This document shows positions 7,119-10,542 of a DNA stretch of 10,542 nucleotides, one piece after another. The notes under the pieces are model-generated. The model saw only the letters and a program-made list of their open reading frames with translations. It was not told the origin of the DNA and searched no databases. Source of the stretch: a virus; UHGV virus genome UHGV-0077157. The stretch is one strand, 5' to 3'. Each line of letters begins with the position of its first letter. Position 1 is the first letter of the stretch. A program made the translations under genes and the position numbers.

Positions 7119-7342
7119 AGAACACCTCCCTGGCGTTTAAACATTTTTCCGGACTGAAACGCCACCAGCGGGTAACTCAGGGTATAAGTACGCCCCTGCA
7201 CCTGGCAGACAACCTTCTGACTTTCTGCATTGACCAGACAAACCCGCAGAACGTGACCGTTGCTGGTGGCAAACCACTGCCCCACGCGGGGGGGGCAACA
7301 GTTGTATCGGTGATACAGGGAATTAACGACGCGGCGAATCAT
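7115..7342 (-). CDS. Hypothetical small Cys-containing protein (75 aa)
   Basis: Start at ATG 7342 with GGAGGTG RBS; ATGA overlap with the upstream gene and ATGA overlap with the initiator start, so embedded in the coupled operon. No homolog recognised. Confidence 0.5.
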   Translation of the reverse strand: MIRRVVNSLYHRYNCCPPRVGQWFATSNGHVLRVCLVNAESQKVVCQVQGRTYTLSYPLVAFQSGKMFKRQGGVL

Positions 7343-7701
7343 GGGCGCACCTCCCATTGATTACGGCAGAAAGCGGTAAGATTCAGGCTGTTCTCTGCCT
7401 CATGGAATGCTTCAATGCAGCTCTCGTAGTACCGCATTGTGCGCAGACTTAACCCAAGCTGAAGCATCATCAGGCCATCAAGGGTGATGTAATAACCACG
7501 CAGGGAATCGCCATACACGTGGTAAGTACCCGGTATGAAATTACGGGAGAAGAATTCACGCGAGCAGTTCAGATACTCGATTTTGTCGACGATATTCTGA
7601 TGCATGCGCTTGAAGTGGCAGGCAACATGCAGGGAGAAAATAACGGCCTTGCCGTTGACAACTTCAATTTTCAGGTATGGGGAAGTTGGGACTGTAGCCA
7701 T
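7339..7701 (-). CDS. Hypothetical protein (120 aa); the same frame stays open up to 8001 (220 aa)
   Basis: Perfect AAGGAGG 8 nt upstream of ATG 7701 and an ATGA overlap at the 3' end. The in-frame upstream 100 codons have coding-like codon usage in part but the ATG at 8001 has no RBS and overlaps the proposed antisense-RNA promoter. Confidence 0.5.
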   Translation of the reverse strand: MATVPTSPYLKIEVVNGKAVIFSLHVACHFKRMHQNIVDKIEYLNCSREFFSRNFIPGTYHVYGDSLRGYYITLDGLMMLQLGLSLRTMRYYESCIEAFHEAENSLNLTAFCRNQWEVRP

Positions 7702-7988
7702 GATGGCAGCCTCCTTGAGCAGTGAAAAACTTCCACCACCGGAGCTGCGAAACTCATGGGTGGTGAACTGAACAGGGTTCGCAGTACCGGCGCTCAAGGA
7801 AACCGGCGAGCCTTTCGGCTCCCCTGCCCAGCCCACCATAATTCTGGCGTGCGCGAGCATGAACGATAAAAAAGACGCTGGCGCGTCGTATATCGCCTCG
7901 AGCAATTCCGGGCTGCGACCCCCGGCACCCGCTTTATAAGGTGCGGAGACAGTGTAACGTCCCGAAATTGCAGAATCAATATTTGGTC

Positions 7989-8111
7989 TTGAAATGATCA
8001 TATAGCTGCTGATATCTTTAGAACTGTTCTTGGATGTTTCGGAACCGTTTTATGCGAAACAGCTCCCCGTTATTGATGTTGAGTGAGCCGGGTTACTCCC
8101 GGCTTTTTTTT
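7989..8111 (+). ncRNA. Candidate oop-like small antisense RNA (promoter + about 85-nt transcript + terminator)
   Basis: Plus-strand TTGAAA (7989-7994), 18-bp spacer, TATCTT (8013-8018), then the terminator at 8083-8111. Predicted transcript about 85 nt, convergent with the minus-strand early operon, as for lambda oop next to cII. Confidence 0.3.
8083..8111 (+). terminator. Strong plus-strand rho-independent terminator abutting the Rha gene 3' end
   Basis: GAGCCGGG-TTACT-CCCGGC hairpin followed by 8 consecutive T (8104-8111). In the minus orientation the hairpin is followed by TCACTCAAC, so it is unidirectional. Confidence 0.6.
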
Positions 8112-8818
8112 CACCGCTGCCAACCAATAACCTGAAATAACCCCATTTTCGGGTGATACCAGCGAGTCCCTCGCGGTTCTGCTTCCTCCATAACCCGATA
8201 AAAAGCAGCCATAAACGGTTCCACAGCAACAATTGCGCGACGTGACAACAATCCGTCCGGCGTCATGAACTCATGGGTGTCTGTAGGAATCTGATAGGCG
8301 TTCACCAGATTGCGGCATTTATCATCTGACAAACCGGTTTTTGCTTTCAGTTGGCGATATCCGGCATAGCCCTCACGAATAGTGCCCTTTTTAATTTGCT
8401 CGACTGTTTCAGCAACGTGGCTGACTTTTTCTTCCACCTGAGTGATCCGTTTCTGCTGACGAACTGCTTCAAGAGCCATCGCGGCAACCATTTCGATTTC
8501 GCTCATTGGCTTACGGATCTGTTCTTCCAGTTCGCGCCAGCGATCTACCAGGCGAGCAGTGAATTCAGGACAGAGCTGTGCGACGACAATGATGCTGTCG
8601 CGCTTACCTTGTTCTCCTTCAAACAGGTAATGCTCATATTGAACTTTAAAACCTAAGTTATTGATTCTTTCGGAAACCTCAATTTGAGGAGACCGGACAA
8701 CGCCACCTTTGGCTAATGTTTCAATAGTGCGTTTCACATTGTCATGACGTTTACCCACCAGCTCTGCAATTTCAACGCTGGTCATGGATACTTTGCCGTT
8801 AAAAATTGCGATGTTCAT
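8111..8818 (-). CDS. Rha-family phage regulatory protein (antirepressor-like)
   Basis: 235 aa. N-terminal MTSVEIAELVGKRHDNVKRTIETL matches the Rha domain signature (s.eIAeL.GKrH.nVlRdI). Occupies the cII-like position after Cro; ATGA overlap with the Cro-like stop. Confidence 0.8.
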   Translation of the reverse strand: MNIAIFNGKVSMTSVEIAELVGKRHDNVKRTIETLAKGGVVRSPQIEVSERINNLGFKVQYEHYLFEGEQGKRDSIIVVAQLCPEFTARLVDRWRELEEQIRKPMSEIEMVAAMALEAVRQQKRITQVEEKVSHVAETVEQIKKGTIREGYAGYRQLKAKTGLSDDKCRNLVNAYQIPTDTHEFMTPDGLLSRRAIVAVEPFMAAFYRVMEEAEPRGTRWYHPKMGLFQVIGWQR

Positions 8819-9105
8819 TGTTTATCTCCTGCGTGTATTCCATCCGCTCTGTGTGGTGAACTTGGATTTAGGCTTTTGCGTAACAAGTTAGGAATTCCAT
8901 CTTCAGGGTGAGGATAAAGATCTGGCCTTAAGCCATGAGGCGTAACCTTCCATGCAACTACTTCACATACTCGTAAAACGAAACGAGCAGGAATTGTGCT
9001 TTTTGAAAACCACTGATTCACCGCTTGCGGCGTCACACCAAGATTTCGCGCTATGGCATTTTGCGCAATTAATGCACGAAGTTTGTCGTAATCATTTCCT
9101 TCCAT
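8815..9105 (-). CDS. Cro-like (YdaS-type) HTH transcriptional regulator
   Basis: 96-aa ORF transcribed divergently from the CI-like repressor. HTH segment AIARNLGVTPQAVNQW. First gene of the minus-strand operon. Confidence 0.7.
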   Translation of the reverse strand: MEGNDYDKLRALIAQNAIARNLGVTPQAVNQWFSKSTIPARFVLRVCEVVAWKVTPHGLRPDLYPHPEDGIPNLLRKSLNPSSPHRADGIHAGDKQ

Positions 9106-9238
9106 AACAAAGCACCAATATTAACTTTATAAATCAAGAATACATCAAGTTTAAATTAACATGCAAGTTACAAAAGGATCGAATACACTAAAATCAAGTA
9201 AAGATTTATCCTTGTAAAGAAACCCACAGGATTTGGTC
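9106..9238. promoter_or_regulatory. Divergent immunity promoter/operator region (PR/PRM-like) between the Cro-like and cI-like genes
   Basis: 133-bp AT-rich intergenic region between divergent repressor genes. Contains three direct copies of A(A/C)ATCAAG (9131-9138, 9142-9149, 9201-9208) and TAATAT/TATAAA-like hexamers on the minus strand. Individual promoters could not be placed unambiguously. Confidence 0.5.
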
Positions 9239-9928
9239 ATGAAGAACGTCAAAAACACGGAAAATCGAATAGCCGCGATGCTGAAAGCAAAAGGATGGAC
9301 TCAGGCTCAACTGGCCCGCAAGTTAGGTGTGAGTGCGCAATCAGTGCAGTACTGGACAACAGGAAAAACATTTCCACGGAGTGATAAGCTCGCGCATTTA
9401 TCAGAGATTAGCGGTTATCCACAATCCTGGTTCTTAGGTGAAGACTCCTCACCAACCTTTTCCTCGCAAGAGAAACACCAGACAAGAACAGATAGCGTCG
9501 TGTTTAATGTCCTTGATGTTGAGTTTAGTTGCGGTGATGGAACTCATGTCCGTGGTGACTTGATAGATGTAGTGCGCTCAATAGAACTTGATCCTGAATA
9601 TGCCCGACGTCTTGTTGGAAATCGGGCATTCAAAAATATAGAAATAGGTAACGCCAGAGGAGACAGTATGGCTCCCACAATCTCACCTGGCGACCTTCTT
9701 TTTCTTGATAAGACAGTAACTTATTTTGATGGCGATGGTATTTATGCATTTTGTTTTGATGGAGAATGCTACGTGAAAAGGCTTCAAAAAATTGGAAGCA
9801 AAATCATGGTGTTATCTGATAACCCCAATTATCAACCATGGAGCATCGAAAAAGAGGGGTTAGCTCTGCTTTATATCCAGTCTAAAGTGATCTCATCAGT
9901 ACCATTCAACATAAACAGATTTGGTTAG
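9239..9928 (+). CDS. CI-like prophage repressor (N-terminal HTH + C-terminal S24 LexA-like peptidase domain)
   Basis: N-terminal HTH (WTQAQLARKLGVSAQSVQYW) and C-terminal autocleavage domain with GDSMAPTISPGDLLFLD (catalytic Ser) and a downstream Lys (CYVKRL). Start taken as ATG 9239 (AGGA 7 nt upstream); the ORF track begins at TTG 9233. Confidence 0.9.
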   Translation: MKNVKNTENRIAAMLKAKGWTQAQLARKLGVSAQSVQYWTTGKTFPRSDKLAHLSEISGYPQSWFLGEDSSPTFSSQEKHQTRTDSVVFNVLDVEFSCGDGTHVRGDLIDVVRSIELDPEYARRLVGNRAFKNIEIGNARGDSMAPTISPGDLLFLDKTVTYFDGDGIYAFCFDGECYVKRLQKIGSKIMVLSDNPNYQPWSIEKEGLALLYIQSKVISSVPFNINRFG

Positions 9929-9937
9929 TCTTTGATT

Positions 9938-9961
9938 TTAACGGGCTTTGCCCGTTTTTTT
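9938..9961 (+). terminator. Rho-independent terminator after the cI-like gene
   Basis: ACGGGC-TTT-GCCCGT hairpin (9941-9955) followed by a T7 run, 12 nt after the cI stop. Confidence 0.6.
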
Positions 9962-9979
9962 CTGCCTGAAATATACGAT

Positions 9980-10046
9980 ATCAATTTTTTCTTGACAGGC
10001 TATTTCCCAAAACATAATATCGCACCATCAATTATAACTTGATTTG
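9980..10046 (+). promoter_or_regulatory. Near-consensus sigma70 promoter flanked by two 17-bp near-palindromic operator-like sites
   Basis: -35 TTGACA (9992-9997), 17-bp spacer, -10 TAATAT (10015-10020). Sites ATCAATTTTTTCTTGAC (9980-9996, overlapping -35) and ATCAATTATAACTTGAT (10027-10043, over the predicted +1) share ATCAATT-n4-CTTGAy. Drives the ORF at 10074. Confidence 0.6.
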
Positions 10047-10073
10047 ATTCAATTTAAAATTGTTGGTGGATAT

Positions 10074-10493
10074 ATGAAGACACTAAAAGCAACTCCAGAA
10101 ACAACTAATTTTATCAACTGCGGCTGTGTTACGCTTAAGGGCTTAGAACTTGATTCCTTTGCATTAAATATTGCAAATTTGCTAAGTGCTGTACGCACAT
10201 TCCATCTTCTGGATTGTGCTCGCTCAAAGGAACTGGGCATTGAGGTAATGGAATTTATCCATGAATATGCTCTATCTGCTGCTTCTCCTGCGCAACAAAA
10301 ACAATCCTTCCCTGAAAGCTGGCTGGTTAACCTTCGCACCCAACGCGAAGCCTGCGGCTTAACAACCGCCGAACTCGCCAGGCTGCTCGATCTCGATGAA
10401 GAAATTATCATCCAGTGGGAGAGCGGAGAGTATGAACCAACTATCAGTATGCTTATCCCACTGGCAAATATTCTTGGCTGCGATGCGAGGTGA
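10074..10493 (+). CDS. Protein with uncharacterised N-terminal domain and C-terminal XRE-type HTH (140 aa)
   Basis: Start at ATG 10074 with GGTGGA RBS. C-terminal HTH LRTQREACGLTTAELARLLDLDEEIIIQWESGEYEPTISMLIPLANILG. N-terminal 85 aa has no recognised motif. First gene downstream of the operator-flanked promoter, in the position lambda gives to N. Confidence 0.6.
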   Translation: MKTLKATPETTNFINCGCVTLKGLELDSFALNIANLLSAVRTFHLLDCARSKELGIEVMEFIHEYALSAASPAQQKQSFPESWLVNLRTQREACGLTTAELARLLDLDEEIIIQWESGEYEPTISMLIPLANILGCDAR

Positions 10494-10542
10494 TGCTGCC
10501 AACTTACTGATTTAGTGTATGATGGTGTTTTTGAGGTGCTCC

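What the first reader, a model, noticed from the sequence alone, without database searches (positions are those of the whole stretch)
9980..10493. Operator-controlled gene in the N position encodes a non-N, C-terminal-HTH protein with an unknown N-terminal domain
In lambda the first PL gene is the Arg-rich antiterminator N. Here a near-consensus promoter (TTGACA-17-TAATAT), bracketed by two 17-bp near-palindromes, drives a 140-aa protein whose XRE-type HTH is at the C-terminus, an arrangement typical of antitoxins such as MqsA/HigA rather than classic repressors. The N-terminal 85 aa is unrecognised. The region just beyond cI is a known hotspot for prophage exclusion and defence cargo, and a partner gene may begin right after 10493. 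This is the best candidate in the window for an undescribed regulatory, toxin-antitoxin or exclusion module.
Basis: partly seen in the sequence, partly recalled or inferred. Interest (0 to 1): 0.6.

Follow-up and report, generated by a model that had tools for sequence, protein, structure and literature searches.

The report
IS1-truncated prophage early regulator gene
The ORF is the front part of a widespread but unstudied DNA-binding regulator gene that sits behind an ordinary repressor-controlled early promoter of a lambda-like E. coli prophage, and it ends where it does only because an IS1 insertion sequence has jumped into it; it is not a toxin-antitoxin or defence module.

Summary
The sequence features are real: TTGACA-17-TAATAT (9992-10020), two 17-bp palindromes (9980-9996, 10027-10043) and an ORF (ATG 10074) with an XRE helix-turn-helix (HTH). 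Uninterrupted alleles continue '...GCDAMWLLTG...' and are 153, 182 or, most often, 230 aa, the last with a second HTH. So '140 aa, C-terminal HTH' is an insertion artefact, and what follows 10493 is IS1, not a partner gene. The palindromes share ATCAA-N7-TTGAT with three sites between cI and cro (6 sites against 0.5 expected), so they are ordinary OL operators. The whole protein, N-terminus included, matches phrog_4836 ('CII-like regulator', function untested). This gene follows cI in every related prophage examined, including Stx phages and phiP27. No toxin, MqsA, HigA, CII or defence membership is supported. Two further results: the immunity-region boundary falls inside the gene at about 10320, so the N-terminal 85 aa is immunity-linked. 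That N-domain is a two-helix hairpin with a free-standing paralog (66 or 121 aa) just downstream in relatives, which suggests, unproven, SinR/SinI-like control. This copy is an ordinary disrupted gene.

The parts
9239..9928 (+). cI-like repressor gene (229 aa, HTH_3 plus Peptidase_S24). It defines the immunity type.
   Evidence: It is 99.6% identical to the cI next to the intact 230-aa allele in L003.
9114..9209 (.). OR region with three sites matching ATCAA-N7-TTGAT (9114-9130, 9144-9160, 9193-9209), between cro (8815-9105, minus strand) and cI.
9940..9956 (+). Intrinsic-terminator-like hairpin followed by a T-run, ending the cI transcript.
   Evidence: 7-bp stem with 5 G-C pairs, then TTTTTCTGCC.
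9980..9996 (.). OL operator a, ATCAATTTTTTCTTGAC, overlapping the -35 hexamer.
9992..10020 (+). PL-like promoter, TTGACA-17-TAATAT.
   Evidence: 10 of 12. Other immunity types have an equivalent 9-10 of 12 promoter at the same position.
10027..10043 (.). OL operator b, ATCAATTATAACTTGAT, with perfect half-sites, lying 6 nt downstream of the -10 hexamer.
10048..10064 (.). Weaker third operator-like site, TTCAATTTAAAATTGTT (2 mismatches).
10074..10488 (+). Native part of the regulator gene: codons 1-138 plus the first base of codon 139. A Shine-Dalgarno-like GGTGG lies at 10065-10069.
   Evidence: It is 99-100% identical to the intact alleles P0019, P0020 and P0022.
10143..10289 (+). Coding region for the N-domain helical hairpin (residues about 24-72).
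   Evidence: The AF2 model of the 97%-identical P0004 has helices 26-45 and 49-69. The domain is paralogous to the downstream 66-aa and 121-aa proteins of relatives.
10319..10330 (.). Approximate left boundary of the immunity-specific segment (mosaic junction), lying inside the gene just before the HTH.
   Evidence: DNA identity to three other immunity types jumps from 8-58% to 80-97% in the 60-nt bin starting at 10319.
10332..10484 (+). XRE-type HTH (residues 87-137), cut before its last helix.
   Evidence: Pfam HTH_3 positions 1-51 of 55, E = 3e-10. The AF2 and Foldseek match is to the P22 C2 and 434 cI/Cro fold.
10489..10542 (+). Left end of IS1. The terminal inverted repeat is about 10489-10511. 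It supplies the last two bases of codon 139 (Arg) and the TGA stop at 10491-10493. insA would start about 2 nt beyond the window on the + strand.
   Evidence: 100% identity to IS1 in P1 and other phages; P1 annotation of the IR, mobile element, insA and insB.

Best explanation
Window 9980-10493 holds the OL/PL control region of a lambda-like E. coli prophage of the N-less, phiP27 / long-tailed-Stx-phage type. It also holds the first 138 codons of that prophage's first early-left gene, which an IS1 insertion starting at 10489 has interrupted. The IS1 inverted repeat supplies one Arg codon and the stop codon.

Shown: the intact gene belongs to one family (phrog_4836; phiP27 L10; 'transcriptional regulator' of Stx phages). 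That family lies directly downstream of cI in every relative examined. Its architecture is a roughly 85-aa N-domain (a two-helix hairpin in this type), a highly conserved XRE HTH, and an optional second HTH. The operators around its promoter carry the same motif as the cI-cro operators. The immunity-region boundary lies inside the gene, at the start of the HTH.

Inferred: in an intact phage the gene is silent in the lysogen, because CI occupies the OL sites. It is made immediately on induction or infection, as the first PL product. It binds DNA through the HTH at a target that is common to phages of different immunity, not at OL or OR. The reason is that the HTH is 86-98% identical across immunity types whose operators differ. 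It oligomerises through the hairpin.

Most speculative step (about 25-30%): the free-standing hairpin paralog encoded just downstream modulates the regulator by forming mixed oligomers, as SinI does with SinR.

In this window the product lacks the last HTH helix. IS1, which from general knowledge is strongly polar, separates PL from whatever remains of the early-left operon. This copy is therefore most likely a crippled gene in a degrading prophage.
For: IS1: 100% identity of 10488-10542 to annotated IS1 ends, with element geometry and orientation from P1. All non-IS homologs stop matching at about 10492. The same truncated 139-aa product is on 7 contigs from at least two sequencing runs, and the three shown all break off in the IS1. 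Intact alleles: 153 aa in ETEC6 and 182 aa in PhiR49_2, and 230 aa (P0004) on at least 1000 contigs. Family: phrog_4836 full length, E = 8e-94. Synteny after cI. Operators: with other immunity types carrying their own promoters and repeats. Mosaic junction and covariation of the N-domain with cI: cI 28-41% identical and HTH1 86-98% identical between types, and at least 6 N-domain types on one HTH. Hairpin: AF2 models. Paralogy: BLASTP 43-50% identity with E = 1e-8 to 1e-10, hhalign 97.6% probability, PHROG cross-hits. The paralog is present downstream in 10 of 11 distinct contexts. SinR/SinI and AimC/AimX precedents: PMC3163267 and bioRxiv 10.1101/2025.11.23.689978.
Against: No experiment on any family member was found, so the DNA target, oligomeric state and phenotype are all unknown. 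Against strict SinI-like pairing: the same 66-aa protein (98.5% identical) sits next to regulators with very different N-domains (L003 against L011). N-domain types 3-6 show no detectable homology to the small protein. The hairpin fold has no specific structural relative, SinI included (best E = 3). The far side of the IS1 is not in any recovered contig, so simple insertion cannot be told apart from IS1-mediated deletion of the left arm. Whether the truncated product is inactive was not tested; it keeps 51 of 55 HTH profile positions.
Confidence: 0.85

Rival explanations
1. One reading: an antitoxin-like (MqsA/HigA-type) or exclusion/defence regulator, with a toxin or effector partner encoded just downstream.
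For: The HTH is near the C-terminus in the 139-aa and 153-aa forms. There are weak sub-threshold hits to MqsA (TIGR03830, 39.6 bits against a cutoff of 61.8) and HipB-type antitoxins (49.4 against 71.65). A ParE-like ORF lies about 1-2 kb further down the left operon in some relatives. In relatives a small gene overlaps or abuts the stop codon.
Against: All antitoxin hits are generic HTH matches below the curated cutoffs. PADLOC returns only generic HTH models. The adjacent small gene is a paralog of the regulator's own N-domain, with no toxin family match. The dominant form has two HTHs with HTH1 mid-protein. In this window the 'partner' is IS1. The promoter is CI-repressed, so the gene would be off in the lysogen, where a defence or TA module would be expected to act.
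Confidence: 0.05
2. A functional analogue of lambda CII, as the PHROG label and the ASU11 annotation suggest: an early activator that promotes establishment of lysogeny, with the small hairpin protein acting as a CIII-like protector or decoy.
For: phrog_4836 is labelled 'CII-like regulator' and ASU11 gp50 'putative CII repressor'. No recognisable cII lies between cro and the replication genes in the window, where the ORFs are Rha, ash and an 80-aa ORF. It is an early, CI-repressed HTH protein. From memory of lambda biology, CIII protects CII from FtsH by acting as a competing substrate, and a domain-mimic small protein would fit that logic.
Against: No Pfam Phage_CII hit. The gene is in the PL operon, not the PR operon. 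The labels are unverified annotations. No target promoter was identified.
Confidence: 0.15
3. The truncated 139-aa product is itself functional, for example as a dominant-negative or altered-specificity regulator retained by selection, rather than a dead gene.
For: It keeps the promoter, Shine-Dalgarno-like sequence, hairpin and 51 of 55 HTH profile positions. The same allele is seen in at least two independent runs. Natural single-HTH forms of only 136-153 aa exist.
Against: It loses the conserved '(D/x)MWLLTG' end of the domain, which is helix 5 in the model. None of the 5,426 complete E. coli genomes carries this junction, so it is rare. IS insertion into prophage genes is a common route of decay (general knowledge).
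Confidence: 0.12
4. A protein substitute for the N antiterminator in these N-less phages.
For: It occupies the same position as lambda N, first after PL. No N homolog is annotated between cI and int in relatives. Its N-terminal part is immunity-linked, as N is in some lambdoid immunity regions (from memory).
Against: It is an XRE DNA-binding fold with no arginine-rich motif in the sequence, and there is no precedent for this fold acting as an RNA-binding antiterminator.
Confidence: 0.03

Closest known systems
phrog_4836 'CII-like regulator' (phiP27 L10; PhiR49_2 XSB43070; 'transcriptional regulator' of long-tailed Stx1a/Stx2a/Stx2d phages LC5678xx; RefSeq 'helix-turn-helix domain-containing protein', e.g. 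WP_250392966)
   Same: The same protein family over its full length (E = 8e-94 for the 230-aa form and 3.6e-33 for the window's N-terminal 85 aa alone). It has the same position directly after cI and the same promoter/operator layout.
   Different: The window copy is cut at residue 138 by IS1. The family itself has no experimentally known function, and its name is an annotation only.
SinR/SinI of Bacillus subtilis, and AimC/AimX of arbitrium phages
   Same: An XRE (434-like) HTH fused to a two-helix oligomerisation module, plus a neighbouring small protein that is a sequence paralog of just that module. In SinR/SinI the two hook together into a four-helix bundle and DNA binding is lost (PMC3163267; bioRxiv 2025.11.23.689978).
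   Different: The domain order is reversed, with the hairpin N-terminal. There is often a second HTH, and the small gene is downstream. There is no sequence or specific fold similarity of the hairpin to SinI. The small protein does not co-vary with the regulator's N-domain type. No interaction has been shown.
Lambda N (first PL gene)
   Same: Map position, and control by OL/PL.
   Different: There is no homology. This is an XRE DNA-binding fold, not an arginine-rich RNA-binding antiterminator.
Lambda CII
   Same: An early, CI-repressed HTH regulator, and the source of the PHROG label.
   Different: No detectable similarity, no Phage_CII Pfam hit, and it lies in the PL rather than the PR operon.
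MqsA / HigA / HipB-type antitoxins
   Same: An XRE HTH preceded by another domain.
   Different: Scores fall below all curated cutoffs. There is no Zn-ribbon and no adjacent toxin. The apparent C-terminal placement of the HTH is partly an IS1 artefact.
DNA-binding domains of P22 C2, 434 cI and 434 Cro
   Same: These are the best structural and sequence matches for both HTH domains.
   Different: Those repressors have the HTH at the N-terminus and recognise immunity-specific operators. Here the HTH is conserved across immunity types.

Membership tests
IS1 insertion sequence (for window 10489-10542) | Terminal inverted repeat GGTGATGCTGCCAACTTACTGAT..., followed by the insA leader | tested here: met
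   54-55 nt are 100% identical to IS1 in P1, SfIV and others. The P1 annotation gives the 'terminal IR of IS1', the mobile element and insA 56 nt from the element's start.
IS1 insertion sequence (for window 10489-10542) | Complete element with insA/insB, a second IR and an 8-9 bp target duplication | not testable with these tools
   The window and all three contigs shown end inside the IS1.
phrog_4836 / phiP27 L10 family | Full-length profile match that includes the N-terminal domain | tested here: met
   P0008 E = 8e-94 (profile 1-194 of 194), P0019 E = 9.5e-77, and the window's N-terminal 85 aa E = 3.6e-33.
phrog_4836 / phiP27 L10 family | Position directly downstream of an S24 cI repressor, on the same strand, as first gene of the leftward operon | tested here: met
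   true of every locus examined.
XRE / Cro-CI HTH superfamily | Pfam HTH_3 above the gathering score, and the five-helix 434-like fold | tested here: met
   HTH_3 at 40.4 bits against a cutoff of 23. Foldseek TM-score 0.8-0.9 (target-normalised) to P22 C2 and 434. In the window copy the last helix is missing.
Lambda CII (Pfam Phage_CII) | Sequence homology to CII | tested here: not met
   No Phage_CII hit. BLASTP E = 1.4.
Lambda CII (Pfam Phage_CII) | Located in the PR operon after cro; activates PRE/PI | tested here: not met
   The location is the PL operon. Promoter activation is not testable here.
MqsA / HigA / HipB antitoxins (type II TA) | Family model above the curated cutoff | tested here: not met
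   TIGR03830 39.6 against 61.8; TIGR03070 49.4 against 71.65; Pfam MqsA_antitoxin 18.5 against 30.
MqsA / HigA / HipB antitoxins (type II TA) | Adjacent, co-transcribed toxin gene | tested here: not met
   The adjacent gene is IS1 in the window. In relatives it is a hairpin paralog with no toxin family match.
Known anti-phage defence systems (PADLOC) | Specific match to a defence-system protein model, with its partner genes nearby | tested here: not met
   Only HTH-region matches to RmrA, HTH_VI and CapH models, with no partner genes.
SinR/SinI-type repressor-antirepressor pair (functional class) | HTH protein whose oligomerisation module has a neighbouring free-standing paralog | tested here: met
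   for paralogy; showing both are two-helix hairpins; for adjacency in 10 of 11 contexts. This holds in relatives only; the partner is not in this window.
SinR/SinI-type repressor-antirepressor pair (functional class) | Physical heteromer that abolishes DNA binding | not testable with these tools
   No multimer prediction or experiment was available. The lack of covariation between small-protein type and N-domain type argues for caution.
SinR/SinI-type repressor-antirepressor pair (functional class) | Homology to SinR C-terminal domain or SinI | tested here: not met
   No PDB sequence hit for the N-domain. Foldseek with the hairpin model gives a best E of 3, with generic hairpins only.
Lambda N antiterminator | Arginine-rich RNA-binding motif and homology to N | tested here: not met
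   There is no such motif in the translation, and the family hits are HTH only.

The most novel reading that the evidence does not exclude
In N-less lambdoid phages, including long-tailed Stx phages and phiP27, the first PL gene and the small gene after it form a SinR/SinI-like (or AimC/AimX-like) regulator and anti-regulator pair. The regulator's hairpin domain is part of the exchangeable immunity module, while its DNA-binding domain and the free hairpin protein belong to the shared backbone. This pair would then be a so-far unrecognised layer of the lysis-lysogeny or induction circuit. It might contribute to the CI-type-dependent differences in Stx2 phage inducibility reported when a 2.9-kb segment carrying cI and three other genes is swapped (bioRxiv 10.1101/2024.03.06.583675). 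The copy in this window would be a natural knock-out of it.
Probability: 0.22. Interest if true: 0.55.

Novelty: new member of a known kind. Interest (0 to 1): 0.3.

Why it matters
The window copy matters little in itself. It is an insertion-disrupted gene in a gut E. coli prophage, and the features that made it look unusual (short length, terminal HTH, an unknown neighbour) come from IS1. The practical lesson is to check ORF ends against IS termini before interpreting architecture. The intact family is more interesting. It holds the N position in a large group of E. coli prophages, including Stx-converting phages. It is silent under CI and first to be expressed on induction. It has never been studied. 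Its gene straddles the immunity boundary, and it travels with a free-standing copy of its own N-domain. If the pair works like SinR/SinI, it would add a regulatory layer to induction of medically relevant phages, and it is easy to test genetically in PhiR49_2 or L-Stx2a phages.

Tried and rejected
(1) PsrA/PsrB as the source of the 'regulator' label: they are AraC-type proteins, so unrelated. (2) RgdR (Flockhart 2012): it is a DUF4222 protein. A DUF4222 gene does lie further down the same left operon in relatives, but it is not this gene. (3) Lambda CII homology: none. (4) Defence systems: PADLOC gave only generic HTH hits. (5) NCBIfam naming models: nothing above cutoff. (6) PDB by sequence: the N-domain has no hit, and the HTHs match only generic XRE domains. 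(7) Foldseek with the full model returned HTH domains only, and with the hairpin model nothing significant. (8) Exhaustive phmmer of the N-terminal 85 aa against 1.84 billion representatives found only two clusters, both already known. (9) Looking up the source contig with the TTG-start product found nothing. The ATG-start product found 7 contigs, but the three shown stop in the IS1, so the far side could not be read. I did not scan the JGI metagenome or GTDB collections for the right-hand junction, because the source sample is an ENA assembly that those collections do not hold. (10) Rfam found nothing in 9930-10542, so there is no evidence for a put- or nut-like RNA. (11) Helix amphipathicity of the hairpin was uninformative (z = 0.4-0.9 for three of four helices). 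(12) Literature searches for phiP27 L10/L08 and for Stx-phage early regions found no functional study.
Full report
THE OBSERVATION. The window is the early region of a lambda-like prophage. On the minus strand lie a DNA methylase, a Q-type antiterminator, RusA, DnaB- and DnaC-like replication genes, an O-like gene, an ash/Rha pair and a Cro-like gene (8815-9105). On the plus strand lies a cI-like repressor with HTH and S24 peptidase domains (9239-9928). Its best DNA matches are E. coli chromosomes at up to 99.8% identity, and the temperate phage PhiR49_2.

Downstream of cI is a terminator-like hairpin (9940-9956). TTGACA (9992-9997), a 17-nt spacer and TAATAT (10015-10020) form the promoter. 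It is bracketed by ATCAATTTTTTCTTGAC (9980-9996) and ATCAATTATAACTTGAT (10027-10043), with a weaker third site at 10048-10064. An ORF starts at ATG 10074, preceded by GGTGG at 10065-10069, and runs to 10493. It encodes 139 aa with Pfam HTH_3 at residues 87-137.

The last 54 bases of the window (10489-10542) are the end of IS1. They are 100% identical to IS1 copies in P1, SfIV and other phages. In the annotated P1 record the match covers the 'terminal IR of IS1' and the insA leader. The element starts at window 10489, and insA would begin about 2 nt past the window's edge on the same strand.

Every non-IS homolog stops matching at about 10492. An alignment shows that intact alleles read on as ...GCGATGCGA|TGTGGCTGTTAACTGG..., whereas the window has ...GCGATGCGA|GGTGATGCTGCC.... 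Codon 139 (AGG) is therefore half IS1, and the TGA stop (10491-10493) lies wholly inside the IS1 inverted repeat.

Uninterrupted alleles are 153 aa (strain ETEC6), 182 aa (PhiR49_2) or 215 aa. The commonest form is 230 aa (P0004, seen on at least 1000 contigs).

The exact 139-aa product is encoded on seven contigs from at least two sequencing runs. One of them is the human-gut metagenome contig that matches the window. The three contigs shown all break off in the IS1, as short-read assemblies do at repeats. The insertion is therefore real, but its far side could not be recovered. None of the 5,426 complete E. coli genomes has this junction.

THE OPERATORS ARE ORDINARY. The motif ATCAA-N7-TTGAT (up to 2 mismatches) occurs three times between cI and the ORF and three times between cro and cI (9114, 9144, 9193). 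That is six sites in 278 bp, against 0.50 expected from dinucleotide shuffles of those same AT-rich spacers, and 0 of 5000 shuffles reach six. One motif shared by OR and OL is the standard signature of CI/Cro operators.

Prophages of other immunity types carry the same gene behind their own 9-10 of 12 promoter and their own, different repeats. They essentially lack this motif (0, 0 and 1 weak match) although their HTH is nearly identical. I infer that the palindromes are bound by this phage's CI and Cro, not by the product of the gene they control.

THE PROTEIN FAMILY. Pfam, NCBIfam, PADLOC and the PDB recognise only the XRE HTH. MqsA, HipB-type and DicA models are all below their curated cutoffs, there is no Phage_CII hit, and BLASTP against lambda CII gives E = 1.4.

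PHROGs has a full-length family, phrog_4836, labelled 'CII-like regulator'. It gives E = 8e-94 for the 230-aa form and 3.6e-33 for the window's N-terminal 85 aa alone. In deposited phages the gene is called 'transcriptional regulator' (long-tailed Stx1a, Stx2a and Stx2d phages), 'putative CII repressor' (ASU11), 'DicA' (phi467) or hypothetical L10 (phiP27). I found no paper that studies it. The EHEC prophage regulators PsrA/B (AraC type) and RgdR (DUF4222) are different proteins.

In every locus examined the gene lies directly after an S24 cI repressor on the same strand. It heads an operon that runs through small ORFs to xis and int, and no N homolog is annotated there.

ARCHITECTURE. The 230-aa form has a disordered N-terminus, a two-helix hairpin (26-45, 49-69), HTH1 (82-141), a linker and HTH2 (163-223). 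The AF2 model has mean pLDDT 66.8, with the domains at 70-89. Its HTHs superpose on P22 C2 and 434 cI/Cro.

Single-HTH forms end '...LGCDxMWLLTG', which is HTH1 joined to the tail of HTH2. P0107 (136 aa) is P0067 (216 aa) minus exactly that interval. Each of the three large N-domain types has both one-HTH and two-HTH members. Unequal exchange between the two HTH repeats has therefore happened repeatedly. The window allele is closest (99-100%) to single-HTH forms, and its HTH profile is cut at position 51 of 55.

THE IMMUNITY BOUNDARY LIES INSIDE THE GENE. Against three prophages of other immunity types, DNA identity is 8-58% through cI, the operators and codons 1 to about 82. It then jumps to 80-97% from window 10319 onward. 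Between types, cI proteins are 28-41% identical and HTH1 is 86-98% identical. At least six unrelated or barely related N-terminal segments are found on the same HTH. The 'unknown N-terminal domain' is thus the immunity-linked end of a mosaic gene.

The Stx-phage literature notes that a 2.9-kb segment with cI and three more genes is swapped between CI-4 and CI-5 L-Stx2a phages that differ in inducibility. Whether that segment includes this N-domain is not stated there.

A FREE-STANDING COPY OF THE N-DOMAIN. In relatives the next gene encodes a 66-aa (phrog_4587) or 121-aa (phrog_5451, phiP27 'L08') protein, sometimes overlapping the regulator's stop codon. Both PHROG profiles, and the proteins themselves, match residues about 24-72 of the window protein. 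BLASTP gives 43-50% identity over 44-48 residues with E = 1e-8 to 1e-10, and hhalign gives 97.6% probability.

The small protein is confidently predicted as the same two-helix hairpin (pLDDT 86.5, pTM 0.70). It lies downstream in 10 of 11 distinct contexts. A profile search finds it only as short 'hypothetical' proteins in Escherichia, Salmonella, Citrobacter and Pantoea.

The arrangement is an XRE HTH fused to a helical hairpin, beside a small protein that mimics only the hairpin. That is the logic of SinR/SinI, where the two hairpins hook into a four-helix bundle and DNA binding is lost (PMC3163267). It is also the logic of AimC/AimX in arbitrium phages.

The resemblance is one of design, not of descent. 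The hairpin has no specific structural relative (best E = 3). The same 66-aa protein accompanies regulators with very different N-domains, and N-domain types 3-6 are not detectably related to it. I therefore give the hetero-oligomer step only about 25-30%.

HOW IT MOST LIKELY WORKS. Shown: the gene is the first gene behind an OL/PL-type control region, it encodes an XRE DNA-binding protein, and in this window it is interrupted by IS1. Inferred: in intact phages it is off in the lysogen and first on after CI inactivation. Its HTH recognises a site common to many immunity types, and its hairpin mediates oligomerisation, possibly modulated by the downstream paralog.

For this copy, the product lacks the last helix of the HTH. 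From general knowledge IS1 is strongly polar and should uncouple PL from any remaining downstream genes, including xis and int. This is probably one step in the decay of a prophage.

RIVALS. I put the antitoxin or defence reading at about 0.05, a true CII analogue at about 0.15, a functional truncated product at about 0.12, and an N substitute at about 0.03.

VERDICT. The feature in this window is an ordinary IS-disrupted member of a catalogued but uncharacterised phage regulator family. The family's mosaic structure and its hairpin paralog are worth a modest follow-up in an intact phage.

Noticed in passing
window 7756-7843 (-) and 7868-7944 (-): Rfam finds a C4 antisense RNA (RF01695, 84 bits) and an isrK Hfq-binding RNA (RF01394, 56 bits). 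Both lie inside the 5' part of the mechanically called 'ash family' ORF (7339-8001), just downstream of Rha. This looks like a P1/P7- or Gifsy-type RNA-controlled antirepressor module in the PR operon. The first ~80 codons of that ORF may not be coding.
   Followed up: partly
window 10496-10523 (+): There is a promoter-like site, CTGCCA-16-TATGAT, inside the IS1 inverted repeat. It probably corresponds to IS1's own insA promoter in the left IR (from memory). IS1 is oriented with insA on the same strand as PL.
   Followed up: no
window 10489-10505 compared with L001 6560-6580 (alignment A1): The native sequence just 3' of the insertion point (TGTGGCTGTTAACTGG) resembles the IS1 end (GGTGATGCTGCCAACTTAC) well enough that BLAST extends some homolog matches about 13 nt into the IS1 (H20-H22). 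This may be chance, or a target preference for IR-like sequence.
   Followed up: no
P0067 vs P0107, P0001/P0004 vs P0019 (relatives): One-HTH and two-HTH forms of the regulator occur within each major N-domain type. The short forms look like precise deletions between the two HTH repeats at '...CD(P)|MWLLTG', so the domain number appears to flip recurrently.
   Followed up: partly
L001 8289-8507 and 10414-10656; L003 6645-6863 and 8273-8515: The early-left operon of relatives carries a ParE-like toxin-family ORF with no obvious adjacent antitoxin. It also carries an SPFH/Band_7 gene and a DUF4222 gene, the family of the EHEC LEE regulator RgdR. These are not in the window.
   Followed up: no
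L001 6115-6606 (RefSeq WP_250392966) vs window 10044/10074: RefSeq starts this gene at an upstream TTG (window-equivalent 10044, +10 aa). GenBank phage records and most database proteins start at the ATG (10074), which has the Shine-Dalgarno-like GGTGG. The TTG-start product of the window is not on record, whereas the ATG-start product is.
   Followed up: yes
(database search with hairpin profile A3): The profile search returned short hairpin proteins and two regulator fragments (P0026, P0058). It did not return the full-length 230-aa regulators, although their N-domains were in the query alignment. The absence of other fusion architectures in that list should therefore not be over-read.
   Followed up: no
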